A DNA stretch of 64,000 bases from a virus (IMGVR_UViG_3300031251_000970:1-64000); one strand, 5' to 3'. Counted from the first letter of the stretch, positions 7,814 to 62,047 are shown. Notes: a model not told the origin generated them from the sequence alone. Program-made: numbers and translations.

Positions 7814-7859
7814 AGTTCACAAATATTGGGATCGCTTGTTACTGCGGAAGCGATGGATG

Positions 7860-7888
7860 TTTGTACTCGATTGCTGCTGATTGTGCAA
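7860..7888 (-). promoter_or_regulatory. Sigma70-like promoter
   Basis: TTGCAC-17-TACAAA, followed by a CAGTAAC-loop hairpin at 7831..7854. Confidence 0.5.
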
Positions 7889-7899
7889 GAACTTTCGAA

Positions 7900-8994
7900 C
7901 TATTCTTGAGCGAACGGCATGATCAGATGTTGATAGTCGCCAGAGATGAACATTGCCCGATTATCGCCGTCGATCAATTTGACTTCGACCGATGATCCTT
8001 GATCCAAATTCTTCAGCAGATCGGCGACGTATGATCCTCCGAATATGATCGTCAATGGTTCGCCGTCATCGGGAATCGGCATATCGGATTGAGCCTTTCC
8101 AATGTCTTGATCCTTGCTTTCGATGATCAACTTTCCGCCGCCGAAGATGAATGTCAATCCGGTTGATTCGGGAGTTTCCAAAACTCGCACTTGACGCACG
8201 AGAGCGGAGAATTGATTCACCGGAATCATGACCGTTCGTTTCGACTCTTCGGGCTTGACCAGAACCTTGCGATAATCCGGTAACCGCCCCTGAACTGTCT
8301 GAGACGTAATCGACACGTTGCCGATCTTGAACACGACATTGTTATTCGCACTTGCGATCCAACATGGTTCGGTATTCAAAACGCCAGCAATAATTCGCAT
8401 TGCCGCGACCGGAACAACCGGATTGACGATCGGCCATTCGGGATTATTGACCTTCGAAGCGGCCGCTTTCGCGAGCGACAATCGTCGAGAATCCGTTGAT
8501 GCGAGTGAGAGAGTTTCGCCCTCGAATTCGACCTGAATTCCGCCTAATGCGTATCGAGTCGTTTTTTCATCGACGCTGAATGATGTTCGTTTGATCCCAT
8601 CGCGAAGCGGAGTTGCCGCAACGGTGAAATAAGCATCGGCATTGAAAATCGGAATGTCCGGGAACTCTTCGGCATCCTCCAGCCCAAGATTGTAATTCGC
8701 CGATCCGCATTTGATCCGCAGCTTTTTGTCAGTGACTGTCAATGTCAATTCATCGCCGCTCGCCTCTCGCAGAATTGCCAACATCCGCGAGGAGGGAATC
8801 AGGATTTGTTCTGGTTCCCCGATGTAGGGAACATCGACCTGCATGTGAATTTCGGTATCTGACGCACTGAGAGCGATGTTTGTTCCGTCTGCGATCATGC
8901 GAACGTTCATCAAAACGGGCTTCGTCGTCTTGCTCGGCACGACCGCTGAAACGGCCGTAAAGGCATCGCTGAAAACTTTCCGACTGATCTTCAT
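7900..8994 (-). CDS. dnaN: DNA polymerase III beta sliding clamp
   Basis: 364 aa; ASDTE, EEFPDIP, RYALGG, ASTDSRRL, GRLPDY, LIMP motifs. Confidence 0.93.
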   Translation of the reverse strand: MKISRKVFSDAFTAVSAVVPSKTTKPVLMNVRMIADGTNIALSASDTEIHMQVDVPYIGEPEQILIPSSRMLAILREASGDELTLTVTDKKLRIKCGSANYNLGLEDAEEFPDIPIFNADAYFTVAATPLRDGIKRTSFSVDEKTTRYALGGIQVEFEGETLSLASTDSRRLSLAKAAASKVNNPEWPIVNPVVPVAAMRIIAGVLNTEPCWIASANNNVVFKIGNVSITSQTVQGRLPDYRKVLVKPEESKRTVMIPVNQFSALVRQVRVLETPESTGLTFIFGGGKLIIESKDQDIGKAQSDMPIPDDGEPLTIIFGGSYVADLLKNLDQGSSVEVKLIDGDNRAMFISGDYQHLIMPFAQE

Positions 8995-9006
8995 GTGTTC
9001 CCTTTG

Positions 9007-9216
9007 TTATTCGATCACAAATCCCATCGCGATCAGTCGCGGAGATTCATCATCAATCTTGCTTCGACTCCTGACCTGTTTTTTTGTGCGGCCGCAGAAT
9101 ATGCACTTTCCGCCGCCATTCTTCCAGCGATGCTTTGACCCCACTCGCTTTCCTGTTCGCGGATTAACTCCATTGAACTCGGAGCACGGGCGAACATAGA
9201 GTTTTTTCGCGTTCAT
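9007..9216 (-). CDS. Small basic Cys/His protein
   Basis: C...H...CIFCG; ATGA-coupled. Confidence 0.55.
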   Translation of the reverse strand: MNAKKLYVRPCSEFNGVNPRTGKRVGSKHRWKNGGGKCIFCGRTKKQVRSRSKIDDESPRLIAMGFVIE

Positions 9217-9599
9217 GATTGCGGATTGATTTCTTGGATTTTCATGACCTGCTCATGAATTTTCATGATCTGCGGGAGAACTTCTCCGAGGATTGATTTA
9301 CCGTGCTCCCAGGAATCACATTCCGCATTTTCCATCAGCAATCGATTGTCGATGGTTCGAATCCCGCAGATGAATGATATTTGCCCATCTAAATCAAATC
9401 GCATCACTGCGAGCACAACATCTTCCCATCTCGCCACAATGCTCGAAACTCTTGAGTCTCCGCCAAAATGCGTCTCATCGCTCCATTCCAGTTTTTCATC
9501 AGCCATCGAATCTTCCCTTTCAATTGTGTCAAACTCATCGTCATAGAAATCCTCGAACTCGAACGCCGATGCTTCCATCTTTTCGAATGATCGCGACAT
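9213..9599 (-). CDS. Hypothetical acidic protein
   Basis: 128 aa ORF with RBS. Confidence 0.6.
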   Translation of the reverse strand: MSRSFEKMEASAFEFEDFYDDEFDTIEREDSMADEKLEWSDETHFGGDSRVSSIVARWEDVVLAVMRFDLDGQISFICGIRTIDNRLLMENAECDSWEHGKSILGEVLPQIMKIHEQVMKIQEINPQS

Positions 9600-9612
9600 G
9601 ATTTCCCCTCAT

Positions 9613-9837
9613 TCACGGATTCTGCATATCGTCTACGATTTGATCGGATACTGAATCTCCGTCCGCGATCTTAAACGCACATCCCGTGCAAAAACATCGA
9701 AGGGAATTGTCCCACGGGTATACCCATCCCTGATCCGGCTCAAGATTCTTGCCGCACACGCTGCAAGCATTTTCGGTATTGATTGATCGTTTATCGAAGC
9801 ACCTGCGTATCGCGATTTTCTTAACTGAGTTTCTCAT
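9613..9837 (-). CDS. Small zinc-finger-like protein
   Basis: CSVC...CTGC. Confidence 0.6.
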   Translation of the reverse strand: MRNSVKKIAIRRCFDKRSINTENACSVCGKNLEPDQGWVYPWDNSLRCFCTGCAFKIADGDSVSDQIVDDMQNP

Positions 9838-9847
9838 TATCGATCTT

Positions 9848-10417
9848 TCACGGAGCGAATCGCTTTTTCTTGGTCACTTTCACTTTCGGGACCGTAATCG
9901 TCTGGATGCATTCCGATTGATAGTCGGTCGCCGATGTCTCGAACTTGGCAATCTGCATCGCGATCCGAGCGAGGGCATAGGCGTCGTACTCGTCATCGGT
10001 TTCCAGTTCGATTCCGTAGCGGCGAGTCAAACCGACAATGACACCGGTCTTGCCTTCACCTTTCCCTGAACCCGTCGCGAATTTTTTGAGCGTTAACGGA
10101 GCGACCTCGTAAATTGGAACCTTCTCCCAAACGATCGCATATCGCAGCAGTCCGCCGAATTCGATCCGCGACCATGCCTGACCTGACATGCTGCCCATTG
10201 AATAGGATTCGATGCAGCAACATTCCGGCTTCCATCGCTCAATCAATTCAATGACCTGCGAAACGATTGATTTGTTACGCACCATTCGATCGGCGACGGT
10301 CGATCCGAGCGGCTTGGAGATGATCGCGGACTTCTCCATGATCGATCCCGCATCGTCAAGCACGATTACGCCGGTTCGGGTCAATGAAGGATCGATTCCG
10401 ATTACTGTGCGAAGCAT
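9848..10417 (-). CDS. RuvC-like Holliday junction resolvase
   Basis: IGIDPSLTRTG, CIE, LKKFATGSG, DDEYDAYALA. Confidence 0.88.
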   Translation of the reverse strand: MLRTVIGIDPSLTRTGVIVLDDAGSIMEKSAIISKPLGSTVADRMVRNKSIVSQVIELIERWKPECCCIESYSMGSMSGQAWSRIEFGGLLRYAIVWEKVPIYEVAPLTLKKFATGSGKGEGKTGVIVGLTRRYGIELETDDEYDAYALARIAMQIAKFETSATDYQSECIQTITVPKVKVTKKKRFAP

Positions 10418-10612
10418 GACTTCCCCAAATTACGACTTTCCTCGAATGTCCGTACCATCCTCCGAAAATCTATCCAAGTAAGCCCGAGTTCGGTCGACTC
10501 AAAAAATGTCTCGATTCGAATCCGATCGATTAGCCAACGTTCCGATGCGGTTTCGCGGCTGAACTCTGAAAGATCGCTGAACGTTCCATCATTCATGGTT
10601 GATTCCTTTCCT

Positions 10613-10801
10613 TTAACGACTACTCATCAATACGACCTTGATGATCAGCAGCACAATAACCACGACTAAATTCAGCATTGCCGCTCCGAGCAGAGCCGAT
10701 ATTCGCTGAAAATTATCTTTCATCATTACGATGCCGACCGCGAGAAGGATCCAAAATACCCACAGGGCTCCCCACAAAAAACCGCAGGCGAATTCACTCA
10801 T
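10613..10801 (-). CDS. Small two-TM membrane protein
   Basis: Two hydrophobic helices in 62 aa; ATGA-coupled. Confidence 0.65.
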   Translation of the reverse strand: MSEFACGFLWGALWVFWILLAVGIVMMKDNFQRISALLGAAMLNLVVVIVLLIIKVVLMSSR

Positions 10802-11673
10802 TTCGTCATCCTCGATTCTGCCATCGCGATATGAGCTTTGATTTGATCGAGGGCGTCATGATCGAATGTGTTCACGCAGTTCAGTCCTTTCGCATGATCT
10901 CCAATCGTCAATATTTCCTCACTCGGCAACACGAATCGGAATCCTGTTTCCGAAGATGAAATCGCTCGCATGTTTCCATCTTCCATTCGTCGTTGCAGAA
11001 AACCGATGCATTTGTCTAGCTGCGACTTCGGCGGTTCATCAACTGGCCGAATGATCGGCTTCCGAATCAGGTCGAGAGCGGATTGATACTTCCGCAGAAA
11101 CTTTTCCAGCTCGCCTTGCAGAGTCGCCGTGAAATCATCGGGATAGACTCGGATGATCAGTGAATCGATTTCATCGCTTGGCGAATAGCTGATGAAGTCG
11201 CACCATTCGCGGCGAGTTACCAATAGCGATCCGTGAACTTGGCACTTGTATTCGCTCGGCAGAGTTCCGTTTCGGACATAGCGAATATGTGTTTTCAAAT
11301 CTGGGCACTTGACTTCGATCATCCCGTTTTCGCCGACAAGAGCATCAGGCGAGCAGCCGTATCTGCCGCAGTCTGATAAGCAGAAACCGACCTCGGTCAG
11401 TTCTTGATCCGTTCGCATCGCATACCAGGACCGGGCTTCCGGCTCAGTATCGATTCCGTTTTGCATCGATTTAGAAACGTACGAATCTTCCGGTTCGCAC
11501 GAGTAAACTTGATCGATCGATTCTGCGATCAGTGAGTCAATGAAACCGTCTTGAGATGTCGACGGAACGCACTTCACCGGACTCATGATCTTGTCGAATG
11601 AACTTGCCGTAGGAATCCCCCTTCGAAGCCGCCACCATTCAGCGGACCGTTGCTCAACATTGAACAATTTCAT
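10798..11673 (-). CDS. YqaJ / lambda-exonuclease family recombination nuclease
   Basis: QRSAEWWRLRRGIPTAS, GCSPDALV, IEVKCP, YKCQVHG. Confidence 0.92.
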   Translation of the reverse strand: MKLFNVEQRSAEWWRLRRGIPTASSFDKIMSPVKCVPSTSQDGFIDSLIAESIDQVYSCEPEDSYVSKSMQNGIDTEPEARSWYAMRTDQELTEVGFCLSDCGRYGCSPDALVGENGMIEVKCPDLKTHIRYVRNGTLPSEYKCQVHGSLLVTRREWCDFISYSPSDEIDSLIIRVYPDDFTATLQGELEKFLRKYQSALDLIRKPIIRPVDEPPKSQLDKCIGFLQRRMEDGNMRAISSSETGFRFVLPSEEILTIGDHAKGLNCVNTFDHDALDQIKAHIAMAESRMTK

Positions 11674-12518
11674 AATCCGCCTCCGACATCAGACATCGAC
11701 TTCTTAAATCGCTTGTCCAATTCACTGACCGCTTTCGAAAAGACAGATTGCGGCAGGTCTTCATAGACTCTGAATTCCCCATTCGCTTTCGAGGCTTTCG
11801 CGAGCCAGTCGATAAATGCGGCTTCTCGTACTGGAGAACCCGCTCGTTCGCAGTCGGTCGCCATTTTGCGAATCTGCTCGCACTGGTCCTCGGTCCATTT
11901 GGCGGAATCGGAATTGCCGTCATTATCCTCATCGGCGACAACAATATTAAATATCATCAGAGTCAAATATCGCCGCAAATAGGTAATCATCGATCCGAGA
12001 CCCTGAACGGCGGTCTTGTTCGCGACTCCCTTTGCTCCCACATCGTCAATCGGAGAATCGAGGAATCGAGTCTTGGAGAATCCGCCAGTATGCTGAACTT
12101 CGCAAATGATCCGCCGATGATTCGGCAGGTCTGATTTGTCCTCGCCGAACTCTAGAGCGAATCCTTCCTCCGTATAGATCGGCCGAATCAGATTCGCGAC
12201 GGTTTCGAGGCGAGCGTACATACTGCCCGTCGATTTGTTTTGCGAATCTCGCACGACAACCGGCATTCGCTTCTGGCAGCGATTCATCGCTTCCGCATAT
12301 TGCTGTTCTGCGGCCTTCTTTTCCATGCGGTCCTGCAAATCCATGAACTGTGCGATCCGCTCCGCATCGAGGTTCTTTTCGAGGGCCATTTGCAGCAGCG
12401 AATAAGGATTCGCGACCTGCACGATTGCCGTCGATGAATTCTCTTCCACGATCGTCGGCTTCCAGTTCGGAGGCTCGTCTACATTGACAACGGTTTCGGC
12501 TTCGGCTTCGTCGCTCAT
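11670..12518 (-). CDS. ERF-family ssDNA annealing protein
   Basis: YARLE, QGLGSMITYLRRYLTLMIFNI...DEDNDG signature. Confidence 0.9.
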   Translation of the reverse strand: MSDEAEAETVVNVDEPPNWKPTIVEENSSTAIVQVANPYSLLQMALEKNLDAERIAQFMDLQDRMEKKAAEQQYAEAMNRCQKRMPVVVRDSQNKSTGSMYARLETVANLIRPIYTEEGFALEFGEDKSDLPNHRRIICEVQHTGGFSKTRFLDSPIDDVGAKGVANKTAVQGLGSMITYLRRYLTLMIFNIVVADEDNDGNSDSAKWTEDQCEQIRKMATDCERAGSPVREAAFIDWLAKASKANGEFRVYEDLPQSVFSKAVSELDKRFKKSMSDVGGGL

Positions 12519-12730
12519 GATTGTCCCTTACATTGCAAGATTTCGGTTTTCAGTTGATGCCCGCAAAACGGACAAAACGCAATTTCTACCTGTTCGACGA
12601 TCGATTCGATCAGTTCGTCGTCGCTCCAGTCGAAGCGAAAATCACTGCCGATTGCGAATATCCCATTACCTCGACCGACAATGATTCGATCGGCAATCGA
12701 TCGCCTGAGTTCATCGCAACATTCGGCCAT
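12515..12730 (-). CDS. Small Cys protein
   Basis: MAECC...IAFCPFCG, GGAGG RBS; start moved to 12730. Confidence 0.65.
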   Translation of the reverse strand: MAECCDELRRSIADRIIVGRGNGIFAIGSDFRFDWSDDELIESIVEQVEIAFCPFCGHQLKTEILQCKGQS

Positions 12731-12788
12731 GATTTTCCTCCAGACTGCAAAAGAAAAACGCGGGACTCCGTTCCCGCTGTATTTGAGA

Positions 12789-13055
12789 TCATTCCTTGTT
12801 CGCGAATTCCTCGAGCGATTCCTTGATGATGCTGACATCGCCGCAGACGCTCAGAGCATAGACGATTCGGCAACATGCGGCCTCGCTGATGAGGGCACAT
12901 TGTTCTCCGATGCAGACTTCCCAATCTCCACCGTCGTCGATGAACATGACTTCCTGCATCCAGTAGATTCGATCATCCGTTTTGGATTGTTTTCCATATG
13001 CGGCAAGAATCGTTTTGGTGTTTTCATAAAGGCAAAAGACTGGTTTCGTTGACAT
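12789..13055 (-). CDS. Hypothetical protein
   Basis: First ORF after the 13.1 kb promoter, AGGA RBS. Confidence 0.6.
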   Translation of the reverse strand: MSTKPVFCLYENTKTILAAYGKQSKTDDRIYWMQEVMFIDDGGDWEVCIGEQCALISEAACCRIVYALSVCGDVSIIKESLEEFANKE

Positions 13056-13098
13056 GATTGATTCCTGAGTTTGCGGTTACTGATTCGCACTGAGAAGA

Positions 13099-13127
13099 AT
13101 GTTACTCAAGATTTAATCGACTGTCAA
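13099..13127 (-). promoter_or_regulatory. Sigma70-like promoter
   Basis: TTGACA-17-TAACAT in an intergenic region. Confidence 0.75.
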
Positions 13128-13160
13128 TCGATTGTTCTGCAATTTTTGTGAGCTGCGGAT

Positions 13161-13343
13161 TTATTTTTCGCCGTCATCAATTTCCTTCCGCCGCACGACG
13201 ATTTCCGAATTAGCGATGACTCCGATTCTGGCCGATCTGAGCGAGCGAATGTTCAGCAGCATGACTTCGATCGGTCCATCGAGCACATCGCCTTTTTTGC
13301 CGATTAGAATCGATTCCTTCGAGTTTCGCGTCAGAACTAGCAT
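13161..13343 (-). CDS. csrA: Carbon storage regulator CsrA/RsmA homolog
   Basis: MLVLTR..ESILIG...IEV...RIGVIA...VRRKEI. Confidence 0.85.
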   Translation of the reverse strand: MLVLTRNSKESILIGKKGDVLDGPIEVMLLNIRSLRSARIGVIANSEIVVRRKEIDDGEK

Positions 13344-13770
13344 TCGTTTCCCTTTCCTTGAGATTGCGGACTTTCAACTTCTTGCATTACGCGACAGATG
13401 ACCCGCTGTCGCACCGGGATTTAATCTGTATCCTCCGGACTTTGACAAATCATAGCTAACCGTACGAGGATGCTTTTTGACCGGGACGTCGAACTTCGGC
13501 TTTTTGGAAATCAACGCCCGTTGCATCGGTCGGGCGAAACCGACTAATAAACCGCCAGCCGCAAGAAGTATGCTTCCAAATGTACCACATTCGCTTCCTC
13601 GCGAATCTCCAGCGGTCCCCTCGGTACTCGCTGAATTGCGGATAGCATTCGCAGAATCCGATCATCGAAACCGACAACAATTTCAATCGATAATTGAGAC
13701 TGTGATCCATTCTTGATTTTACCATTTACTCGCAAGCAAACCGCAAACTCTCCGAATCGTTTAATCCCAG

Positions 13771-13863
13771 AAACGTCGGCGGGATTCGAACCCGCAATTG
13801 CCAGCAATCTAAGGTTTTGGCGTCCTCTTAATTGCTTGCGTCTACCAGTTCCGCCACGACATT
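13771..13863 (-). tRNA. tRNA-like gene (Leu-type D arm) with an enlarged 24-nt anticodon loop; isotype undetermined
   Basis: Acceptor AATGTCG/CGACGTT, D arm GCGGAACTGGTAGACGC, anticodon stem AGCAA/TTGCT, T arm GCGGG-TTCGAAT-CCCGC; no encoded CCA. Confidence 0.75.
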
Positions 13864-13966
13864 TCGACTGTCGGTTCCGCATTGTCGTTGCCGAGATTTC
13901 TCTCACTCTGCCATCTATCGCAGATTCTGATCGGGTTTCCGACTTCCGCACCAAACAAACCGGCCT

Positions 13967-14617: not shown

Positions 14618-14624
14618 GTCTCCT

Positions 14625-15632: not shown

Positions 15633-16369
15633 GCGGTTTCCTTTGTTTGCTTTTCGAGTTCAGCCAAACGTTTCATATCTGCCATCGCTACATCGTCGCT
15701 GTCGAAGAATCGACGTGGCGAGATTTCATAGCCAGACTTTTTATAAATCTGCATCGCCGCGAACAGCGTCGACGTTTTTTCTTCGAGTTCTTTACCCTCT
15801 TTACCGGCGAGAACCACGGTCCAGCCCGCTCGGCAATGAACGGTCTTGCATTTGTGCCAGCTCGACATGCAGAAAGCATCGGGTTTCGATGCGGCCTCGT
15901 AAATTTTCTGATGAATATTGTCGATCGCTGGAATAGAAAAAGCCTCAGTTTTCTGCGGCGACAAATCGGAGCAACGGAAGCAACCGGAGCAATCGTAGCA
16001 ACCGGAGCAATCGGAGCAATCGGAGCAATCGGAGCAACGGGAGCAACCGTAGCAACCGGAGCAATCGGAGCAACGGGAGCAACCGTAGCAACCGGAGCAA
16101 CGGAAGCAACCGGAGCAACGGGAGCAACGGGAGCAACGGGAGCAATCGGAGCAACGGGAGCAACCGGAGCAATCGTAGCAACCGGAGCAACCGGAGCAAT
16201 CGGAGCAATCGGAGCAACGGGAGCAACCGTAGCAACCGGAGCAACTCAATAATGCGAGAATTGCATTTTCTTCCGATCCGAACCAATTCACAGCGGCTCG
16301 GTTGTTTCTTTCATCGATTGCGACTCCATTTTCGATCTTGATTAGTTTTCGGCGTTCCTCGTTTGTCAT
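15629..16369 (-). CDS. Cys-rich (CxxCxx)n repeat protein
   Basis: 31 C-x-x triplets followed by a [13 protein letters not shown] domain. Confidence 0.8.
15965..16243. repeat. Coding tandem repeat, 31 x 9 bp
   Basis: Minus-strand unit TGC-TNC-NNT repeated 31 times. Confidence 0.95.
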
Positions 16370-16399
16370 TGGATTTCCTTTGATTGTTGAGATTCGGAT

Positions 16400-16951: not shown

Positions 16952-17146
16952 TTATCGCATCCATTCGCGAAGTTCGGATTCGTAACTCCAATCAGAACCC
17001 ACACATTTCCATATTTGAGCGGTTTTACATTGATCCGAGATTTCAAATATCGTGTGCGATTCAATTTATCGGCTCTTACGATGGCTTCGGCTTCGGTCTT
17101 CATTTCAATCCTCGCTTCGTGGTTACTGTTTCACGTCACAGCAGCA

Positions 17147-17175
17147 ATGATATCGGCATTTTTATTGTTCTGCAA
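17147..17175 (-). promoter_or_regulatory. Sigma70-like promoter
   Basis: TTGCAG-17-TATCAT upstream of a small ORF starting at ATG 17103. Confidence 0.6.
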
Positions 17176-30027: not shown

Positions 30028-30060
30028 GATCAGTCCCTTTCTATGTTCGTCGCTGCATTA

Positions 30061-30108
30061 AATATACTGAACTTTAACTTTACTTGTCAACAATTGTTCT
30101 GTATATTT
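30061..30108. promoter_or_regulatory. Overlapping divergent sigma70-like promoters
   Basis: Minus TTGACA-18-TATATT; plus TTTACT-17-TATATT; AT-rich gap between divergent genes. Confidence 0.6.
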
Positions 30109-30147
30109 GTTTCGTTCGGAAACTTTTTCTTAATTGGAGTAGATCAA

Positions 30148-30609
30148 ATGTCAACCGTCGAGATCATTCAAAAGCATCTGCCTACCTTGGATGAGGCGAT
30201 AACAAGATTCCTCAAATTGGATCGAAGCATTCTCGACGATAGAGACACACTTCGCCTCGCAGCATTTCTCTCATCCGATCAACTGAGCAAACTTGATTTT
30301 GCGGTGATCGAAGGTGAAATTCATAATCCGCTTGAATGGACGGCGGATAATGTCTCAAAGGAATTGGCGGAAGACGTCGCGTTTGCTTTCGAGAAAGCAC
30401 TCAATCGACGGGGAATCTCCGCCTACTTGATGGCTGGTGTTTTAGAAATGTGGCACGCGATTCTTCAACCGCCGTTCGACTTGCCAAAGTATCGCCATTA
30501 TGGATTGCCGATTGCGAAGTCGATGGCCGTTTATTTCGAACTCGACAATCAAATCGGCGATAAGAATGGCGACGAGTTCGAGTTCTCAACTGAAGCGGAG
30601 GGAATTTAA
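30148..30609 (+). CDS. Hypothetical protein (plus-strand moron-like)
   Basis: GGAG RBS before MSTVEIIQ; AFAFEKALNRRGISA motif. Confidence 0.75.
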   Translation: MSTVEIIQKHLPTLDEAITRFLKLDRSILDDRDTLRLAAFLSSDQLSKLDFAVIEGEIHNPLEWTADNVSKELAEDVAFAFEKALNRRGISAYLMAGVLEMWHAILQPPFDLPKYRHYGLPIAKSMAVYFELDNQIGDKNGDEFEFSTEAEGI

Positions 30610-30926
30610 TGCGACTTTCAGCGATGACGACCACAGAGAGAGATCGATTGACGCCGCATGTCATGAAGCGATGGGATGATCTGATCGCTTTATTTCAGAG
30701 TTTTGGCATTACATCGAGCACGATTATCGGCAGCGATACGGATCGACAAATTGTCGTTTGGTTAATGGAGGACAAGGACATCATCGTCGACGACAGCAGG
30801 ACCGTAATCAGCGAGGAAACTCTCTCTCGACGGGCGGAAGCCTACGATCTCGATGTCGAAATTCTGCGTCAATGGTATATCAATTGGCACATTCTGAAAC
30901 TGCCACCAAAAAACGCATCACAATAG
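30609..30926 (+). CDS. Hypothetical protein
   Basis: TAATG-coupled, GGAGG RBS. Confidence 0.65.
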   Translation: MRLSAMTTTERDRLTPHVMKRWDDLIALFQSFGITSSTIIGSDTDRQIVVWLMEDKDIIVDDSRTVISEETLSRRAEAYDLDVEILRQWYINWHILKLPPKNASQ

Positions 30927-35060: not shown

Positions 35061-35095
35061 ATATTATTGTTACTGAATATTTGATTCAATTGCAA
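35061..35095 (-). promoter_or_regulatory. Sigma70-like promoter
   Basis: TTGAAT-17-TAATAT or TTGCAA-17-TAACAA in an AT-rich gap. Confidence 0.5.
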
Positions 35096-52790: not shown

Positions 52791-52815
52791 GAATTTTAAC
52801 ATCTTCGGATGAAAA

Positions 52816-56165: not shown

Positions 56166-56222
56166 GTTAAAAATCCCTTTAAGAGCGTGGTACAAAACAG
56201 ATGGCCGCTTTGGCCACGGTCC

Positions 56223-57659
56223 TCAACTTGCCGACAGTCGCCGCTGAAGTTCCTCGGCGAGTTTCCTCATTTTCTCATCTTCCGGAGCCATCGCGGGTTT
56301 CGATTCCTCGACTTTCGGAGTCATCGATTTCATTTTCGCCCCGTGAATCTCGGCTTGTCGCACGAGTCGCTCGGCATGATCGATCGTCGATTGCAACGAT
56401 TTCCGCTGCGATCCGTTCAAATTCTTGTCGGACTGCAACGATTTCAGACGATGAATGATTCCGTACATCTCGTTTTGCCGACCGCTCGACGCGGCGAGAA
56501 ACGATTTCATCTCGGTATTGTCGTCGTCGCTGGAATCTTCGGTTTCGTCGCCCATGTCTTCCGACTTGAGATCGCATTTCATCTTGGGGTAACACTTTAC
56601 GTGTAATCCTTCGAGTTGCGTCATCCCGGCTTTCATCATGTCGTTGACGTCACCAACGCCTTTCTTGACCGCCTCATTCTCTAGGTGATCCCCGAGGCAT
56701 GAATTGGTCGACTTGACGCCCGATTTGATGTGAGCGTGAAGGCATTTGATGACCTGCGAGCCGTACGGCTGTTTTGCAGGATCGACGCCCGGTTCGTTTT
56801 CTGGAGCCTGCATCGTCGCCCCGTTGTTCACATTCGATTCCGTCGCTTGATCGGCGGGAATCGTCGCGGGATTTTGATTGTCGGTTTTTCCGGAACCCGT
56901 TGAACCGGTCTCGGAGTTTTCTTTGTCTTCAGGCACGTTATCGTCGCCCATATCGTCTTTTTTCATTTTCGACTCCTCGAATCCGGTTCCGTATTTTTTG
57001 GGCTTCGGAGCAATGGCAGTGAGTGATTTGTAAATCGACTCGTGGATCGGTCGTCCGTCCAATCGATTTTTTGAGAGGCATTTCGTGATCGCTTGCGGAT
57101 TGACTCCGAGAACGGTGAATGACCATTCCTCCAAGTCCCACAAGCTGACTTCGGTGATCGTCCGACCGTTTTTGAACACCGGACGTGACTTCAAGGGAGT
57201 TTCCCGAACCGAAACGCCGCGAATGACTCCGTCTGCGATCAGTTCGAAAACTTGCATCGCGGTCTGGTCTTTTTGTGCGAAAAAGCATGTCCCATAGACC
57301 GAATCGTCGATGATTTGGATTGCGAGGTTTCCATCCGGGTCGCTGCTGGTTCCCATCGGCAACGGAATTCCTTCCGTCAGTCCGTGATTCCAGAGCACGA
57401 CCGGATTCAGGCGATAATTGTCGAGCTTGCAGCCCGATGCCAAAAGTACATCGCCGACGCGGTCCGGTTCGGCATTCGAGATTCTCGCTCGGACACTGAC
57501 CGCCGATCGATCGACATACGGCGGATCGTTATCCACCGAATCCAGCATGAGCGATGGAGAATCAACCCCGAGAGCTTTCGTCGAATACAACCAATTCATT
57601 CCTCGATTGGTCGAGAGAATGTCGTCGAGGGATTCGAGGAATGGTTGTTCGGCTGGCAT
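56223..57659 (-). CDS. Prohead maturation protease (HK97-type) with long C-terminal extension
   Basis: DRVGDVL, NYRLNPVVLWNH, GVSV, LEEWS...NPQA. Confidence 0.88.
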   Translation of the reverse strand: MPAEQPFLESLDDILSTNRGMNWLYSTKALGVDSPSLMLDSVDNDPPYVDRSAVSVRARISNAEPDRVGDVLLASGCKLDNYRLNPVVLWNHGLTEGIPLPMGTSSDPDGNLAIQIIDDSVYGTCFFAQKDQTAMQVFELIADGVIRGVSVRETPLKSRPVFKNGRTITEVSLWDLEEWSFTVLGVNPQAITKCLSKNRLDGRPIHESIYKSLTAIAPKPKKYGTGFEESKMKKDDMGDDNVPEDKENSETGSTGSGKTDNQNPATIPADQATESNVNNGATMQAPENEPGVDPAKQPYGSQVIKCLHAHIKSGVKSTNSCLGDHLENEAVKKGVGDVNDMMKAGMTQLEGLHVKCYPKMKCDLKSEDMGDETEDSSDDDNTEMKSFLAASSGRQNEMYGIIHRLKSLQSDKNLNGSQRKSLQSTIDHAERLVRQAEIHGAKMKSMTPKVEESKPAMAPEDEKMRKLAEELQRRLSAS

Positions 57660-57686
57660 ACCCGACGATTAGACGGGCGAAAGAAT

Positions 57687-57703
57687 ATTGACGTAATGTC
57701 AAT
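57687..57703. promoter_or_regulatory. Palindromic site upstream of the protease gene
   Basis: ATTGAC-gtaat-GTCAAT. Confidence 0.4.
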
Positions 57704-57737
57704 GCCGAGAAGTTTTACAGACGTCTAGAAAACTTTC

Positions 57738-57956
57738 TCACTTCAATTCCGACTGAGGCGGAATCGGAATTTTGATCGAATGCGGGCATTCCGAGCAGTA
57801 GCGATGCTGGATGCGTGATCCGTCGGAAAGCTGTTCAACGGTGCCGACTTTGCAGATTGTGCCACACTTTGGGCAGATCGGAACCGGTTTCAGATTGTAC
57901 CAGTTGACATACTTTCGCTTCGATAATCCGTTTTCCGAATCCTTCACGAATGTCAT
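57738..57956 (-). CDS. Small zinc-ribbon protein (Ogr/Delta-like)
   Basis: CPKCG...RYCSEC. Confidence 0.55.
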   Translation of the reverse strand: MTFVKDSENGLSKRKYVNWYNLKPVPICPKCGTICKVGTVEQLSDGSRIQHRYCSECPHSIKIPIPPQSELK

Positions 57957-58033
57957 CCGAGATTTCCTGAGAGCGAATTAACCGCGACTCGGATTGTTAT
58001 CGCGAATTCGACGGGATTTGACAACATGAAATG

Positions 58034-58068
58034 AAAAAGCCGATCCGGTTTTGATGCCGGATCGGCTT
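58034..58068 (-). terminator. Rho-independent terminator
   Basis: AAGCCGATCCGG/CCGGATCGGCTT stem with a T5 tail on the minus strand. Confidence 0.85.
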
Positions 58069-58100
58069 CGCATTCCACTGTCGAATATCAATCAGCGACG

Positions 58101-58496
58101 TTAGTCGTTCATATCCAATTCCGCTCCGCTGATTTGCTTTTCGAACAAATCAAACAGTCGTCGTCCGATTTCGTCGGGAATATTCGCGACATGCTCCCCT
58201 TTCGCCAGCAATTCGGCAGACTCGAACAATCGCTCGTCATCGCCTTCGGGTGCCCATCCGAGATTCTCCCAGCCGCCGTACATTGATCCGGGGTCGTAAT
58301 AGCCCGTCGATGTGAAATGGATTGCGAGTTCCAAGCAGGGAGTCGAATCGAAATCCATCGGCAAATAGGGTCGCAAGAATTCGAGAGCGTCGCTTCCGCA
58401 GCCGATCTCGGTTTGCAGGTCGCAGATGAAGCCGTCTTCATCGCTGTCGAGTTCCAGGTAAATCACTCCGGCGACATTTGACCAACTGTTTTTCAT
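58101..58496 (-). CDS. Acidic hypothetical protein
   Basis: AAGGAG RBS; GYYDPG...PEGDDER. Confidence 0.7.
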   Translation of the reverse strand: MKNSWSNVAGVIYLELDSDEDGFICDLQTEIGCGSDALEFLRPYLPMDFDSTPCLELAIHFTSTGYYDPGSMYGGWENLGWAPEGDDERLFESAELLAKGEHVANIPDEIGRRLFDLFEKQISGAELDMND

Positions 58497-58536
58497 TTTA
58501 TAACTCCTTCGTTGCGGTTACTGATCGCACGAACAA

Positions 58537-58565
58537 ATATTACAGAACAATTTATCGGCTGTCAA
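58537..58565 (-). promoter_or_regulatory. Sigma70-like promoter
   Basis: TTGACA-17-TAATAT. Confidence 0.75.
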
Positions 58566-59065
58566 CTCGCAATCGATTGACCCTCATTCGCCCATAGTCC
58601 TGACATTCCGCCATATCGTGATCCGGTCGTTCGAAATTCAGCGGTCCATTCCCAAACATCGCGAACGAAACACTGAAACTCGGCTCCGGAGAGTTCAAGT
58701 TCTGGACGCGTGTCGAACTCCGCCATGTCAATCGCGGCGTCATACGCATCGCGATAACTTTTCGGGACGACCAACTGAACGGATATTCCATTCAAAATCG
58801 TCAGATGATCGCTGAACTGATCGGCCGTATCGGCTGTGAAGGAATTGATCTTCGCGATGATCCTGGATTTCTGTTCGGCGATTTGCGAATCCAGATTGCG
58901 AAATGTGGCCTCCACTTTTTCGAGTGATTGAGCGACATAGCCTTTCATCGCCTCGTCGAACAGCAGTACGTGCCGTTCGCGATTTGCCTTGAGTGTTTCG
59001 ATCAGTCTCAGCCGGTCAACGACGACGGTTCTATTCATCTGATTGCTTAATGCTCGGTTTGCCAT
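58562..59065 (-). CDS. Phage hypothetical protein
   Basis: L..L..NR..H...P.SY..AYD..I.M...F..FVRD.W.W; AAGGA RBS. Confidence 0.7.
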   Translation of the reverse strand: MANRALSNQMNRTVVVDRLRLIETLKANRERHVLLFDEAMKGYVAQSLEKVEATFRNLDSQIAEQKSRIIAKINSFTADTADQFSDHLTILNGISVQLVVPKSYRDAYDAAIDMAEFDTRPELELSGAEFQCFVRDVWEWTAEFRTTGSRYGGMSGLWANEGQSIAS

Positions 59066-59099
59066 GTTCGATTCCTTTGATCTGTTTGAGAAAGCGGAT

Positions 59100-59300
59100 T
59101 CAATCAATCATGCATGATCGGTCGTAGGCATCTTCGAGGCACGAATCGACGATGCGTTTATTCTCTTCGGCTGTTACGTTCAGTTCTGATTTTTCGTAGC
59201 CGATCTCGTCGAAGTCCCATTCGATCTCGCATTCGTACATTGCGATGACTTTGTTGTGATATTCGATTTCAACTTGTTTGCCGCGAAAGTCGACGATCAT
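59100..59300 (-). CDS. Small acidic protein
   Basis: AAGGA RBS; ATGA-coupled. Confidence 0.6.
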   Translation of the reverse strand: MIVDFRGKQVEIEYHNKVIAMYECEIEWDFDEIGYEKSELNVTAEENKRIVDSCLEDAYDRSCMID

Positions 59301-59764
59301 TTGGATTCCTTTGTGAGTTCGGCCAGCAAACGATCTGCGGACTCAATAGCCATTGCTGCACAATTTCCAGAGCCGAACCGCTCATAACCATCACAGGAGA
59401 GCAATCCGCTTAACGCCGCCGTTGCAATCGTTTCTCGTGTCGCTCGTCCTAATGCAACTAATTGCAACTTTTTCAAGTTATCGGCGATGTTTTCGAGCAG
59501 TGAATCCGTCTTACTGTATGGACCCTGGCCGATCGCCCACAGTTCCACCAACGCGAATTCGGCTGACTCACGTTCGATTGGTCGACCATCCGCCTCAGTG
59601 ATGATTTTTCCAGAAGATGAAAACGCAGTCCAAATGCCGACTTTGCAGGTTATTGGATTTTGCACCCGAACAATCCGACTTCCATCCCGAAACACGTATG
59701 AACCGTTGGACAGCAGCTTGCCAAGGTCTTTCTTCAACTGCTTGATAGAGGGCTGTCTATTCAT
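59297..59764 (-). CDS. Hypothetical protein, paralog of the adjacent gene
   Basis: C-terminal TRETIATAALSGLL...ADRLLAEL. Confidence 0.65.
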   Translation of the reverse strand: MNRQPSIKQLKKDLGKLLSNGSYVFRDGSRIVRVQNPITCKVGIWTAFSSSGKIITEADGRPIERESAEFALVELWAIGQGPYSKTDSLLENIADNLKKLQLVALGRATRETIATAALSGLLSCDGYERFGSGNCAAMAIESADRLLAELTKESK

Positions 59765-60215
59765 TTGATCCCTTTTTGAGTTCTGCAATGAGGACATCGG
59801 CCATTTGAACGGCCATCTGAGATAGAAACTTGAAGTCGCAGTCGAAGTCTTTTCCGACGGTCGTCGCGAATCCTTGCAATGCCATTGCCGCGAAATGCTC
59901 TCGCTTCGTGAGATTGGATGCGAGTTCGGGAATCGGTTCTGTGGGTTTCGGCCGAGCGTTGCTTTCGCGGTATGATGCGAATGGTCCTTCTCCCGCTTCC
60001 CAATAGCACATCAAGACGTCCTCGATATGATCGAAGAATTTTGGCGTCTTTCCATCATCGTCTAGCATGAACGATCCGTCATCCCAGGTTGCGACCCATT
60101 TTCCGTCTTCTTTCTCGACGATTGAGCATCGATCCGGAAAAGAGTAATACGACCCCTCGTCGCTTTCGTGAAGTTCACCTAGTTTTTCTCGAAGTTCTCC
60201 CATTCCCGGCTTCAT
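59757..60215 (-). CDS. Hypothetical protein
   Basis: C-terminal LTKREHFAAMALQG...ADVLIAEL. Confidence 0.7.
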   Translation of the reverse strand: MKPGMGELREKLGELHESDEGSYYSFPDRCSIVEKEDGKWVATWDDGSFMLDDDGKTPKFFDHIEDVLMCYWEAGEGPFASYRESNARPKPTEPIPELASNLTKREHFAAMALQGFATTVGKDFDCDFKFLSQMAVQMADVLIAELKKGSNE

Positions 60216-60763
60216 CGCGTTTTTCCTTTCTCTTGTTCAGTCAAGTCGATCTCGACTAGCCTGTCGAGAAGTTTTTGAAACGTGTCATTCAGATATGGCA
60301 GGTTCTTCGGATCGCGTTCTTTTGCGATCAGAGATTCGATGTAATCGAGGCGGGTTTCGAGCTGTTCTTTTGTCATGAGTCTCTCGCTTCGCGTGCCAGT
60401 TCGTCGCGTTGTTCTTCGGTCAGCTTGAATCGGTCGCACAGGATTTCTCGTTCAAGATTCGCTTGATGGAATCGTTCTTGGAAATCATTTGACCTTCTTC
60501 GGCTTCGTTCGAGTTCATTCTTGAGACTGTCGATTTCTTGCTGATCTTTTTTCGTTCGCATGGATCACCTTTCCACGATCATCAGAGCGAAATTCTCTCT
60601 ACGACAATCGGACGTCTCGATTGGCGTTCCGTCGATCGTGCTGAGGATGACCCCGCGATGCAGAATCGTTGCCGCCGTTACTGTTCTGTCGTCGTAATAC
60701 GAGTCCTGCATAACGACATACGGATCAATCCCATTCGCCAATTCATCGCCCAGTTTCTTGAAC

Positions 60764-61165
60764 TCAGACCATCTCATCGGAACCGCCTTCCTGCTGAGAC
60801 TTCGCGATTTGTTCTCGCTCGTAGGCTTCGTCGAGCAATCTGTTTTCTTGGTCCGACAGGTCGATAAAGTGTTGAGCGGCATCGTCGAAAATGTCCTTCA
60901 GACCATCGGTCTCGCCGTCGCAAACGACGCAGATCGCATCATCCTCCGGCCAATTTCCTTCGGCGACAACAATTCCGACAATCTCGCCGCACAATGCGAT
61001 TAGCTCGTGAGCCGCCTTCAGTTCATCCTTTTCGAGAACAGTATTGTGGTCGGCCTTTCCTGACTTCGACATGATCGCTTTGATCACGTCTCGACAATCT
61101 TTCAGATCAGTGAGCGTATAGCGGAAGCGGTTTGTATAACGGTGAGACATGGTTTTTCCTTTCAA
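60764..61165 (-). CDS. Acidic hypothetical protein
   Basis: 133 aa; likely start MSHRY after an AAGGA RBS. Confidence 0.6.
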   Translation of the reverse strand: MKGKTMSHRYTNRFRYTLTDLKDCRDVIKAIMSKSGKADHNTVLEKDELKAAHELIALCGEIVGIVVAEGNWPEDDAICVVCDGETDGLKDIFDDAAQHFIDLSDQENRLLDEAYEREQIAKSQQEGGSDEMV

Positions 61166-61226
61166 AAGTCTTTCGATTCACAACAGTCCCCGCCGATCCA
61201 TCAACGGGGAGAGCAGTGAACCGCGA

Positions 61227-61970
61227 CTAGATTGCAGAATACTTCGTTTCAGCGTCGATCAATCCATACAGTTTCATCGTCAACAAGGTGAACTTCGTTG
61301 GATTCGATTCGCGGGCTTTCATGGCGAATGTTCCGGCGTTGAACAAGCTCCAAGCCGTTCGCGGTTCGAACGCTGAGAATGATGGCTTCCGCCATTCCGC
61401 AATCGCTTGCGGCAGAAGTGTTGAACTCAGGATTCCTTGCTCGTAGGCGTGAAGCAAACAACTTGCGGCCTGCTGTTCGGTCAGTTCGCATGCCTGATAA
61501 TGTTCGATGCGTTTCGCTTCGACCTGCTGAAACTGAGCGAGAGCGACGATCGACTTTGAAATCCCTTCGTCGAATCGATTCATACCGAATCGTGTGTGAC
61601 GCTTGCTGACATAGATTTCCGAGTTGAATGAGAGATTGTCGCATACGAATACTCGGGAACCGGCCGTCATGCCGATTGGGAACACTTTGTCGACTGAATT
61701 GCGAACGCCAACAGCGAGAGAAACTCCTTCGACAATTGGACTCGCCAAATCGAGCGTCGCGAAGAACTGAGCATTGTCGGCCGACAGAGCGAACTGCGAT
61801 TTGCGGATCGAGAACCCCGCATTCGTCAGCGATCCTTCAACCGTTTCCAAAACCGTCTTGTGTGGCGTCGGAAACCATGTCGATGTGCCTTCGACGTGTT
61901 CGCAGGATTCGACTTCCGAACGTTCGACTTTTCGTGATCCGCGATGAAGGATGAGAGTTGATTCGGTCAT
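61227..61970 (-). CDS. DUF932-like protein
   Basis: P.PH, RNS.DK, RVFVCDNL, RHT, TAWSLFNA.T. Confidence 0.8.
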   Translation of the reverse strand: MTESTLILHRGSRKVERSEVESCEHVEGTSTWFPTPHKTVLETVEGSLTNAGFSIRKSQFALSADNAQFFATLDLASPIVEGVSLAVGVRNSVDKVFPIGMTAGSRVFVCDNLSFNSEIYVSKRHTRFGMNRFDEGISKSIVALAQFQQVEAKRIEHYQACELTEQQAASCLLHAYEQGILSSTLLPQAIAEWRKPSFSAFEPRTAWSLFNAGTFAMKARESNPTKFTLLTMKLYGLIDAETKYSAI

Positions 61971-62047
61971 TCTGTTTTCCCTGTTCAGGAGTCTCACGCA
62001 ATTCGTCGAGCACGGTTACTGTTTCGTGTTCGCGTCGTGATGAAATA

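What the first reader, a model, noticed from the sequence alone, without database searches (positions are those of the whole stretch)
7831..62032. A CAGTAAC-loop hairpin with variable stems sits at the 5' end of five dispersed transcripts
Seen: about 13-26 nt downstream of five predicted minus-strand -10 boxes there is a hairpin with a 9-10 nt loop ending in CAGTAAC, while the stems differ but keep pairing. The five copies are ATCGCTT-ccgCAGTAAC-AAGCGAT (7831..7854), TGCG-aatCAGTAAC-CGCA (about 13072..13089), CGTG-aaaCAGTAAC-CACG (about 17118..17135), TTCGTGCG-atCAGTAAC-CGCAACGAA (about 58508..58533) and GAACACG-aaaCAGTAAC-CGTGCTC (about 62008..62031). Inference: a fixed loop on varying stems points to an RNA (or ssDNA) signal shared by a regulon, such as a boxB/nut-like antitermination site, a protein-binding loop or an antisense target. 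I do not recognise this loop from a described motif.
Basis: partly seen in the sequence, partly recalled or inferred. Interest (0 to 1): 0.85.

Follow-up and report, generated by a model that had tools for sequence, protein, structure and literature searches.

The report
Shared loop hairpin on phage leaders
An uncultured soil phage starts six of its transcription units with the same small RNA hairpin, whose stem varies but whose loop always reads CAGUAAC, and it carries one mirror-image loop in a folded RNA in front of its helicase gene, so these units are probably controlled together, although nobody has tested this.

Summary
A sixth identical-type copy lies 524 nt past the window end, in the same 81,876-bp phage record.

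- **Position.** All six lie on the coding (minus) strand, in noncoding gaps. Their loop word starts 13-26 nt after the -10 box of a sigma70-like promoter.
- **Structure.** The loop word CAGTAAC never changes. All four stem pairs show compensatory changes (23 of 23 cells paired; 0 of 500 shuffles match).
- **Known families.** No Rfam family matches. No retrievable relative carries the motif.
- **Mirror loop.** The 212-nt dnaN-helicase spacer holds a very stable 126-nt RNA fold (z = -4.6) ending in U6. One of its hairpin loops is exactly GGUUACUG, the complement of CAGUAACC.

Best reading (about 0.38): a regulon tag read by loop-loop pairing with this phage RNA. A protein reader, whether an antiterminator or a translational repressor, is nearly as likely (0.30). 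The loop matches the P1 loop of a published preQ1-I aptamer, but the PreQ1 model does not hit.

Earlier AI notes of this scan describe similar leader-plus-mirror-loop arrangements in other soil phages; I did not check them. There is no expression data and no close relative, so the mechanism is inferred.

The parts
7831..7854 (-). Leader hairpin 1: 7-bp stem ATCGCUU/AAGCGAU, loop ccgCAGUAAC
   Evidence: (local MFE -6.0 kcal/mol)
7860..7888 (-). Promoter-like site TTGCAC-17-TACAAA (7 of 12 consensus matches; the weakest of the six)
7690..7815 (-). 126-nt branched RNA fold closed by a 10-bp stem and followed by U6 (7692-7697). It lies between hairpin 1 and the helicase start (ATG 7688 or 7679).
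   Evidence: MFE -52.1 kcal/mol, z -4.64, 0 of 200 shuffles as stable, MFE equals centroid.. Terminator-like hit 7720..7702.
7787..7802 (-). Mirror-loop hairpin inside that fold: CCGG/GGUUACUG/CCGG. The whole 8-nt loop is the complement of CAGUAACC.
   Evidence: plus-strand view CCGG/CAGTAACC/CCGG; loop bases unpaired with probability 0.73-1.0; 8-bp duplex -10.0 kcal/mol
13072..13089 (-). Leader hairpin 2: UGCG/aauCAGUAAC/CGCA. The SD starts 6 nt after the stem and the ATG lies 16 nt after it.
13099..13127 (-). Promoter-like site TTGACA-17-TAACAT (10 of 12)
17118..17135 (-). Leader hairpin 3: CGUG/aaaCAGUAAC/CACG. The ATG lies 14 nt after the stem.
17147..17175 (-). Promoter-like site TTGCAG-17-TATCAT (8 of 12)
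58513..58529 (-). Leader hairpin 4: UGCG/auCAGUAAC/CGCA (9-nt loop; extendable with a bulged A to 58508-58533). The ATG lies 16 nt after the stem.
58537..58565 (-). Promoter-like site TTGACA-17-TAATAT (10 of 12)
62011..62028 (-). Leader hairpin 5: CACG/aaaCAGUAAC/CGUG. The ATG lies 40 nt after the stem; the gene encodes a DUF932-like protein.
62048..62076 (-). Promoter-like site TTGACA-17-TAACAT (10 of 12)
63996..64000 (-). 3' end (the last 5 nt inside the window) of the GNAT acetyltransferase gene 63996-64496. That gene is headed by leader hairpin 6, which lies OUTSIDE the window at record coordinates 64524-64541 (L009 2524-2541): CACG/aaaCAGUAAC/CGUG, after TTGCTA-17-TACGAT at 64550-64578.
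35069..35075 (-). Seventh occurrence of the word. It is not counted as a member because it overlaps a -10-like hexamer (TTGCAA-17-TAACAA), has an A/T-only 4-bp stem and has no 5' spacer.

Best explanation
The six hairpins are one family of promoter-proximal leader RNA elements, a 'regulon tag'. They sit on transcripts started by host-type (sigma70-like) promoters of an uncultured phage of about 82-90 kb. The stem only has to pair. The information is in the loop: a 2-3 nt spacer (A-rich in five of six) plus CAGUAAC, followed by C in five of six copies.

The most likely reader is the phage's own folded RNA in the dnaN-helicase spacer (7690-7815). It shows the exact complement, GGUUACUG, as the entire loop of a hairpin. 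An 8-bp loop-loop ('kissing') contact would tie the fate of five dispersed units to the level of this RNA. That fate could be translation, since the hairpin ends 3-5 nt before the ribosome-binding site in three of them, or 5'-end-dependent stability. In cis, the same contact with hairpin 1 could tune the terminator-like fold that stands before the helicase gene.

Shown here:
- the six copies
- their covariation
- their promoter context
- the mirror loop
- the stability of the fold

Inferred:
- that the promoters fire
- that the 126-nt RNA accumulates
- that the loops pair
- the direction of the effect
For: Family and structure:
- 7 of 8 minus-strand occurrences lie in loops, p = 6.5e-11 against 3.1e-7 at best in 60 shuffles.
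- 23 of 23 stem cells are paired and 4 of 4 pairs have double changes.
- In each predicted leader the hairpin is the minimum-energy structure, at -3.2 to -6.8 kcal/mol locally.

Promoter link:
- 6 of 6 copies follow a TTGnnn-17-TAnnn(T/A) site.
- On the minus strand, 7 of 7 sites with at least 9 of 12 consensus matches fall in the 10.3% noncoding fraction, and 3 of the 4 best carry the hairpin.
- Outside the promoter hexamers and the loop, nothing is conserved.

Partner RNA:
- The only plus-strand copy of the word that sits in a hairpin gives, on the minus-strand RNA, a loop that is exactly GGUUACUG.
- That loop lies in a 126-nt fold with z = -4.64, which 0 of 200 shuffles match, followed by U6.
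- Both loops are predicted unpaired, and the 8-bp duplex is worth -10 kcal/mol.
- All five distant leaders offer CAGUAACC. The neighbouring leader offers GCAGUAAC, which is also 8 nt.
- My estimate is about 0.04 for the complementary 7-mer lying by chance in any noncoding hairpin loop.

Precedent: the P1/P7 c4 RNA acts through loop-displayed complementary sequences, as summarised in PMC12197685 (passage read).
Against: - No transcript, start site or RNA end has been seen.
- Complementarity is only 8 nt and is cheap in this genome. 19 of 121 control upstream regions have some complement of at least 8 nt somewhere in the 126-nt RNA.
- The mirror loop was noticed after the fact.
- The constant feature of the six copies is distance to the promoter, not to the ribosome-binding site. 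Distance from stem to ATG is 14, 16, 16, 27, 40 and about 142 nt. This fits a 5'-end or polymerase-linked role at least as well as translational control.
- A model of the 126-nt fold found no homologue in 84 loci of helicase relatives; there were 5 weak hits with E 1.6-7.4, and the three alignments shown are generic terminator-like stems.
- No relative close enough to test co-variation of loop and mirror loop could be fetched.
Confidence: 0.38

Rival explanations
1. Protein-binding RNA operator. A phage or host protein recognises the invariant loop on a generic stem. It would either make RNA polymerase read through downstream terminators (nut/N-like or put-like processive antitermination) or repress translation or stability of the tagged messages (like the T4 gp43, RegA or coat-protein operators).
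For: - Fixed loop on a variable stem.
- Nearly fixed distance to the promoter.
- Terminators follow three of the six units: 12777-12760 after ORF88, 58071-58034 (-24 kcal/mol) after ORF131, and the U6 fold before the helicase.
- The SD starts 4-6 nt after the hairpin (3-5 nt between) in 3 of 6 copies.
- The T4/RB69 gp43 operator hairpin also carries -UAAC- in its loop, with the 3' AC bases important for binding (PMC3014915, passage read).
- Several small basic ORFs with Arg-rich stretches exist.
Against: - No candidate reader was found. 60 protein scans over 7 calls (about 57 different proteins) against Pfam or PHROGs gave replication, recombination, methylase, packaging and GNAT hits. None gave an RNA-binding or antiterminator family. 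About half of the ~125 ORFs were not scanned.
- There is no second conserved box next to the hairpin.
- Two units look self-contained (promoter, ORF, strong terminator), which needs no read-through.
- This reading leaves the exact mirror loop as a coincidence (about 0.04) or an add-on.
Confidence: 0.3
2. Passive 5' element. The hairpin protects the 5' end from 5'-end-dependent RNases or causes a promoter-proximal pause. The loop would be conserved for folding or kinetic reasons rather than for a trans-acting reader.
For: - The stems begin close to the predicted start: 3-16 nt after the -10 box, and 3-11 nt in five of the six.
- Position is tied to the promoter, not to the start codon.
Against: - A protective stem needs no invariant 7-nt loop.
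- Stems are short (4 bp in five of six copies) and only -3 to -7 kcal/mol.
- Seven invariant loop positions, set against fully variable stems, indicate sequence-specific reading.
Confidence: 0.1
3. DNA-level site. The word is an asymmetric operator ('stoperator'-like) just downstream of promoters, bound by a phage repressor, or it forms a single-stranded DNA hairpin in the open complex.
For: - The word lies at about +7 to +20 of the promoters.
- One orientation relative to transcription in six of six copies.
- It also overlaps a -10 box at 35069.
- It occurs in both orientations 47 bp apart in the dnaN-helicase spacer.
Against: - A duplex-DNA binder gives no reason for compensatory changes in flanking inverted repeats.
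- Four different stems cannot be half-sites for one protein.
- 7-8 conserved bp is little for an operator.
- No repressor was identified.
Confidence: 0.06
4. Ligand sensor related to preQ1-I riboswitches. Each hairpin would be a reduced aptamer that senses a 7-deazapurine or similar base.
For: - The T. tengcongensis preQ1-I aptamer as printed in PMC10639078 and PMC8494917 is CUGGG/UCGCAGUAAC/CCCAG plus an A-rich tail. It has the same 10-nt loop length and the same last seven letters.
- Hairpin 1's loop differs from it by one letter.
- That riboswitch pairs its loop with the first bases of the SD (PMC4735710, passages). Here the SD follows closely in 3 of 6 copies.
Against: - RF00522 gives no match at any of the six sites, even at E up to 10. 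This held in the 12-kb and whole-record searches and at E up to 1 in the window. The only record hit, 8.3 bits, is elsewhere.
- There is no A-rich 3' tail and no consistent loop-tail pairing.
- The first loop base is not U in any copy.
- No queuosine or deazaguanine gene appeared among the proteins scanned, though that scan is incomplete.
- A literature search on a 7-mer returns 178 papers, so one look-alike is expected.
Confidence: 0.03

Closest known systems
Loop-displayed antisense immunity RNAs of phages (P1/P7 c4 RNA; review PMC12197685, passage read)
   Same: A phage-encoded structured RNA shows short complementary sequences in loops and acts on phage messages. It is made from the leader of an operon.
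   Different: - c4 targets lie around the ribosome-binding site of one operon. Here there are six targets in hairpin loops at 5' ends of dispersed units.
- There is only one 8-nt seed.
- No Rfam family matches at all, so Rfam's C4 family (recalled; no call here named it) does not match either.
- No processing or expression data exist.
Lambda-type nut sites (boxB hairpin plus N protein) and put-type antiterminator RNAs (features recalled, not from a call)
   Same: A small hairpin with a sequence-specific loop lies just downstream of early promoters and upstream of terminators. It is used more than once per genome.
   Different: - The loop is 9-10 nt, not a five-base GNRA-like loop.
- There is no conserved second box.
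- There are six copies.
- No N-like family was found.
- Two units end at their own terminator.
P1 hairpin of the class-I preQ1 riboswitch of T. tengcongensis (sequence as printed in PMC10639078 and PMC8494917)
   Same: - A short stem closes a 10-nt loop whose last seven letters are CAGUAAC.
- It lies just upstream of a ribosome-binding site.
   Different: - No A-rich tail or pseudoknot partner.
- The first loop base differs.
- The stem is 4 bp.
- RF00522 does not score.
- No que genes were seen.
T4/RB69 gene 43 translational operator (PMC3014915, passages read)
   Same: A hairpin upstream of the ribosome-binding site has a loop containing -UAAC-, read by a replication protein to repress translation.
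   Different: - The T4 operator is a single autogenous site.
- It is bound by a family-B DNA polymerase, which was not found among the proteins scanned here.
- Here there are six sites on unrelated genes.
Start-associated sequences of Cluster K mycobacteriophages (PMC3203893; search listing only)
   Same: A short invariant motif repeated in front of many non-structural phage genes, with no known reader.
   Different: - As I recall, SAS abut the start codon and are not defined by a hairpin.
- Here the motif is a loop tied to the promoter. Its distance to the start codon varies from 14 to about 142 nt.

Membership tests
Lambda-type nut site (boxA + boxB / N) | boxB hairpin with a five-base GNRA-like loop | tested here: not met
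   Loops are 9-10 nt in 6 of 6 copies. The definition of the feature is recalled.
Lambda-type nut site (boxA + boxB / N) | Second conserved linear box next to the hairpin | tested here: not met
   Alignment A2 of the six promoter-leader regions has invariant columns only in the -35 hexamer (TTG), around the -10 hexamer and at loop positions (one copy is misaligned by 3 nt).
Lambda-type nut site (boxA + boxB / N) | N-like arginine-rich antiterminator protein encoded by the phage | tested here: inconclusive
   Small basic ORFs with Arg-rich windows exist. No antiterminator family appeared among the 60 scans over 7 calls. About half of the ORFs were not scanned.
Lambda-type nut site (boxA + boxB / N) | Site lies between an early promoter and a terminator that must be read through | tested here: inconclusive
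   A terminator-like structure follows in 3 of 6 units. Whether it is read through is unknown.
PreQ1-I riboswitch (Rfam RF00522) | Covariance-model score at or above 39 bits | tested here: not met
   No match at any of the six sites at E up to 10 or at E up to 1 in the window. The only hit in the record scores 8.3 bits and lies at 78120-78144.
PreQ1-I riboswitch (Rfam RF00522) | A-rich 3' tail that pairs back to the loop (H-type pseudoknot) | tested here: not met
   The sequences after the stems differ and are not A-rich. No consistent partner for the loop's CAG could be found by inspection.
PreQ1-I riboswitch (Rfam RF00522) | Loop sequence of the P1 hairpin | tested here: inconclusive
   7 of 10 loop letters (9 of 10 in hairpin 1) equal those of the published T. 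tengcongensis aptamer. The first loop letter differs in all six copies.
c4-type phage antisense RNA | Match to any Rfam family, which would include its C4 model (recalled to be in Rfam; no call named it) | tested here: not met
   No Rfam family matches 7600-7930 at E up to 10 except a spurious miRNA hit at 13.7 bits. Nothing matches in the window at E up to 1.
c4-type phage antisense RNA | Loop-exposed sequence complementary to target messages | tested here: met
   The GGUUACUG loop is complementary to CAGUAACC in five leaders and to GCAGUAAC in the sixth.
c4-type phage antisense RNA | Targets overlap the ribosome-binding site | tested here: not met
   The target word ends at least 8 nt before the SD, in all six leaders.
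c4-type phage antisense RNA | A stable small RNA is made or processed | not testable with these tools
   No RNA run holds the stretch.
T4 gene 43 translational operator | Hairpin loop with -UAAC- upstream of the RBS | tested here: met
   All six loops end in GUAAC. The feature is taken from PMC3014915.
T4 gene 43 translational operator | Single autogenous site on the mRNA of a family-B DNA polymerase | tested here: not met
   The six sites precede unrelated genes: a helicase, a GNAT, a DUF932-like protein and small unknown ORFs. No DNA polymerase catalytic subunit appeared among the scanned proteins.

The most novel reading that the evidence does not exclude
The 126-nt fold before the helicase gene is an attenuator whose terminator is set by loop-loop pairing with the leaders of five other operons. 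The 5' leaders of abundant early messages would then act as trans regulators. They would license read-through into the helicase-methylase genes, while the same RNA marks those early messages for shut-off. In short, one 8-letter loop code would link six transcription units in both directions.
Probability: 0.12. Interest if true: 0.85.

Novelty: new variant of a known kind. Interest (0 to 1): 0.6.

Why it matters
Phage gene timing is mostly explained by promoters, sigma factors and a few antiterminators. A short hairpin 'tag' on otherwise unrelated, dispersed transcription units would be a compact way to switch a regulon, and the tag comes with a candidate RNA reader encoded in the same genome.

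The idea is easy to test, because both partners are under 130 nt and compensatory loop mutations give a clean answer.

Earlier unchecked AI notes of this scan report similar leader-plus-mirror-loop arrangements in other soil phages. If those hold, this would be one instance of a widespread, uncatalogued class of phage riboregulation.

If instead a protein reads the loop, the element is a new RNA operator that could be used as an orthogonal control part.

Tried and rejected
Relatives
- Helicase, capsid-region, TerL, DnaB and DUF932-like proteins were used as queries in IMG/VR, JGI metagenomes and GTDB genomes. GenBank phages were also searched.
- Only relatives with at most 60% helicase identity came back. 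TerL reached at most 39%.
- In 80 helicase-relative loci (828,486 bases) the word occurs 42 times. 4 of these are in a hairpin layout, at two loci in each of two near-identical contigs (L078, L079) and on both strands. None resembles the family.
- A blind search for loop-enriched 7-mers in the fetched loci of at least 8 kb (L010 onward) found only tandem coding repeats.
- Closer relatives exist as proteins (77%, 73%, 67% and lower), but their DNA could not be fetched.
- The pattern CRYGAAACAGTAACCRYG gave 10 IMG/VR loci. None was similar to this genome, none carried multiple copies, and the number is about what chance gives.

Expression
- No RNA holder is listed.
- The two DNA runs are the likely source sample and a low-depth run holding identical fragments. 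There are no variants at the hairpins.

Rfam: nothing matched except a tRNA-like hit.

Other computations
- RNA duplex folding of the 141-nt RNA against the leaders gave long spurious interactions and was dropped.
- By raw count, 'any 7-mer in a loop' is not exceptional.
- The reversed-word control is more frequent than the word itself.
- I checked for a second seed between the 126-nt RNA and the ribosome-binding sites. The matches of at least 6 nt are scattered and are no better than in controls.
- Model R1 of the 126-nt fold found no homologue.
- A scan for reader proteins found no RNA-binding family. The atlas look-ups named only DUF932.

Considered and rejected
- N4-type hairpin promoters, because of loop size and the presence of ordinary promoters upstream (recalled features).
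- A sigma-dependent pause element, because no T stands at the last position of any -10-like reading of the word.
- A terminator of the upstream gene, because there is no U run.

Supplementary files of papers were not consulted.

Full report
**What the DNA is**

The window is the first 64 kb of an 81,876-bp IMG/VR record classed as a provirus. I found no integrase among the proteins I scanned, and both ends carry phage genes. Nearly all genes lie on the minus strand, according to my own ORF tiling with a codon-usage score.

Family scans give the following:
- a replication and recombination block: DnaQ-like exonuclease, DnaD-like loader, DnaB, ERF, YqaJ exonuclease, RuvC, DnaN, an SF2 helicase and two DNA methylases
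- a large terminase
- a portal-like protein and a head-protease-like protein
- tail-fibre-like proteins

The phage has no close cultured relative. The best helicase match in GenBank phages is 52.6% identical. TerL reaches at most 39% in IMG/VR.

**The observation**

A sixth, CACG/aaaCAGTAAC/CGTG, lies at 64524-64541 of the record, just outside the window.

The word occurs 8 times on the minus strand of the record. Six occurrences are family members. One (35069) overlaps a -10-like hexamer and has only an A/T stem. One (60677) has no stem.

The bare word count is a weak argument. It is 11 against 1.5 expected from dinucleotide shuffles. But the reversed word is commoner, and a raw 'any 7-mer in a loop' count of 7 on one strand was reached in 1 of 40 shuffles.

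The conditional statistic is decisive. 7 of 8 minus-strand occurrences close a loop on at least 4 Watson-Crick pairs, p = 6.5e-11. The best value for any 7-mer in 60 shuffled genomes was 3.1e-7. One-mismatch variants in hairpins are at chance level (3 minus, 5 plus), and none has a promoter.

**Structure**

On the six-sequence alignment, 23 of 23 stem cells pair. All four pairs show changes on both sides, with 2 or 3 pair types each. 0 of 500 shuffles reach the covariation score, and sliding the partner by 1-3 columns drops pairing to 22-44%.

Two pairs of copies share a stem (62015 with 64528; 13076 with 58517), so there are four independent stems. Flanks outside the hairpin are unrelated. 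The stems are short and the hairpins only marginally stable, -3.2 to -6.8 kcal/mol, yet each is the minimum-energy structure of its predicted leader. A signal that keeps pairing but not sequence in the stem, and sequence in the loop, is read in single-stranded form.

**Context**

Every copy follows a TTGnnn-17-TAnnn(T/A) site with 7-10 of 12 consensus matches. The end of the -10 box lies 13-18 nt before the word in five copies and 26 nt in one.

The promoter predictions are credible as a class. On the minus strand, 7 of 7 sites with at least 9 of 12 matches fall in the 10.3% of the record that is noncoding, against 2 such sites on the plus strand. Three of the four best (at least 10 of 12) carry the hairpin. 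The fourth and strongest, at 30090, does not.

Downstream genes are unrelated to one another:
- the SF2 helicase
- an 88-aa ORF
- a 54-aa ORF
- a 131-aa ORF
- a DUF932-like protein
- a GNAT acetyltransferase

The distance from stem to start codon is 14-16 nt in three copies, and 27, 40 and about 142 nt in the others. The element is therefore tied to the 5' end, not to the ribosome-binding site.

Two units look like self-contained cassettes of promoter, hairpin, small ORF and terminator. One ends at 12777-12760 and the other at 58071-58034 (-24 kcal/mol).

**The mirror loop**

The real helicase start is ATG 7688 or 7679. Homologues begin there, and the public protein is 452 aa long. The dnaN-helicase spacer is therefore 212-220 nt of noncoding sequence.

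After hairpin 1 comes a 126-nt segment (7690-7815) that folds into a branched structure. It is closed by a 10-bp stem and followed by U6. Its MFE is -52.1 kcal/mol with z = -4.64; 0 of 200 shuffles fold as well, and the MFE equals the centroid.

One arm is CCGG/GGUUACUG/CCGG. The entire 8-nt loop is the complement of CAGUAACC, which five leaders display, and 8 nt of it pair with GCAGUAAC in the neighbouring leader. Both loops are predicted open, and the isolated 8-bp duplex is worth about -10 kcal/mol. An earlier first-stage note on this window (e1-6143553) had pointed to the same fold. I re-derived it.

From the loop density and the noncoding length, I estimate about a 0.04 chance that the complementary 7-mer lies in some noncoding hairpin loop. 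That makes the mirror loop suggestive, not proof. Complementarity as such is cheap here: 19 of 121 control upstream regions have some complement of at least 8 nt to the 126-nt RNA.

**Mechanism**

I commit to a regulon tag read through its loop, with the phage's own folded RNA as the most likely reader (0.38). The 126-nt RNA is made from the weak promoter at 7888 and by read-through from the recombination-dnaN genes. It would kiss the 5' hairpins of five units and change their translation or stability. In cis, the contact with hairpin 1 could tune the terminator-like fold before the helicase.

Everything after 'the loops are complementary and exposed' is inference.

A protein reader is almost as likely (0.30). 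The promoter-linked position and the terminators after three units fit antitermination. The closeness to the SD in three units, and the -UAAC- loop of the T4 gp43 operator (PMC3014915), fit translational repression. But 60 scans over 7 calls showed no candidate.

The remaining readings rank lower, for the reasons given under rivals: a passive 5' stabiliser or pause hairpin (0.10), a DNA operator (0.06) and a preQ1-like sensor (0.03).

**Comparison with the known**

No Rfam 15 family matches any site or the 126-nt fold.

A full-text search for the RNA word gave 178 papers. Of the 15 listed I opened two, which print the T. tengcongensis preQ1-I aptamer. Its P1 hairpin is CUGGG/UCGCAGUAAC/CCCAG. 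It has the same loop length and the same last seven letters. Membership fails on the model score, the missing A-rich tail and the first loop base.

A search for 'conserved loop', 'early promoters', 'bacteriophage' and 'hairpin' returned two papers, on N4 polymerases and on T4 post-transcriptional control. Neither title or listed abstract suggests such an element; I read passages of the T4 review only. I therefore found nothing in print on this motif within those searches.

Earlier AI notes of this scan (e1-6085344, e1-6101503 and others) describe similar leader-tag plus mirror-loop arrangements in other soil phages. They are unchecked, and I used them only as a lead.

**Limits**

- There is no RNA data.
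- No relative is close enough for co-variation between loop and mirror loop.
- The gene map and the promoter calls are my own simple scans.
- About half of the ORFs were not scanned against protein families.

Noticed in passing
window 13771-13863 (-): A tRNA-like gene scores 37.1 bits against Rfam tRNA. It has normal acceptor, D and T arms but a 21-nt insertion in the anticodon arm. ARAGORN calls nothing here.
   Followed up: partly
window 15965-16399: A long 9-nt tandem repeat reads V-A-P on the minus strand and Gly-X-Y (collagen-like) on the plus strand. Contigs from many other organisms pile up on it in both sequencing runs.
   Followed up: no
window 30028-30160 and 30121-30926 (+): The strongest sigma70-like promoter of the record (TTGACA-18-TATATT, first base 30090, minus strand) has no CAGTAAC hairpin. 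It faces two plus-strand genes, the first of which is phrog_5706. This looks like a divergent control region.
   Followed up: partly
record 70509-71197 (L009 8509-9197), minus strand: Promoter-like TTGACG-18-TAGATT is followed by a different hairpin (6-bp stem, 10-nt loop). After that comes an uncalled ORF with an Arg-rich N-terminus running into the large terminase gene, probably the small terminase.
   Followed up: no
window 58034-58565 and 12760-13127: Two moron-like cassettes, each made of a strong promoter, a leader hairpin, a small ORF (131 aa or 88 aa) and an intrinsic terminator. One is inserted between the portal and head genes.
   Followed up: partly
window 7679-7820: The longest ORF start of the helicase (GTG 7820) is not the real start. 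Homologues and the public protein begin at ATG 7688 or 7679, which frees about 140 nt for the structured RNA.
   Followed up: yes
window 13099-13104, 62048-62053, 35069-35075: The -10 hexamers TAACAT (twice) and TAACAA share TAAC with the loop word. At 13127 the -10 region reads AGTAAC, and at 35069 the full word overlaps the -10. This could be coincidence or shared ancestry of promoter and loop.
   Followed up: no
L038 3235-3285: In a 55%-identical helicase relative, a terminator hairpin with U7 also sits immediately before the helicase gene. A terminator at this junction may be an older feature than the mirror loop.
   Followed up: no
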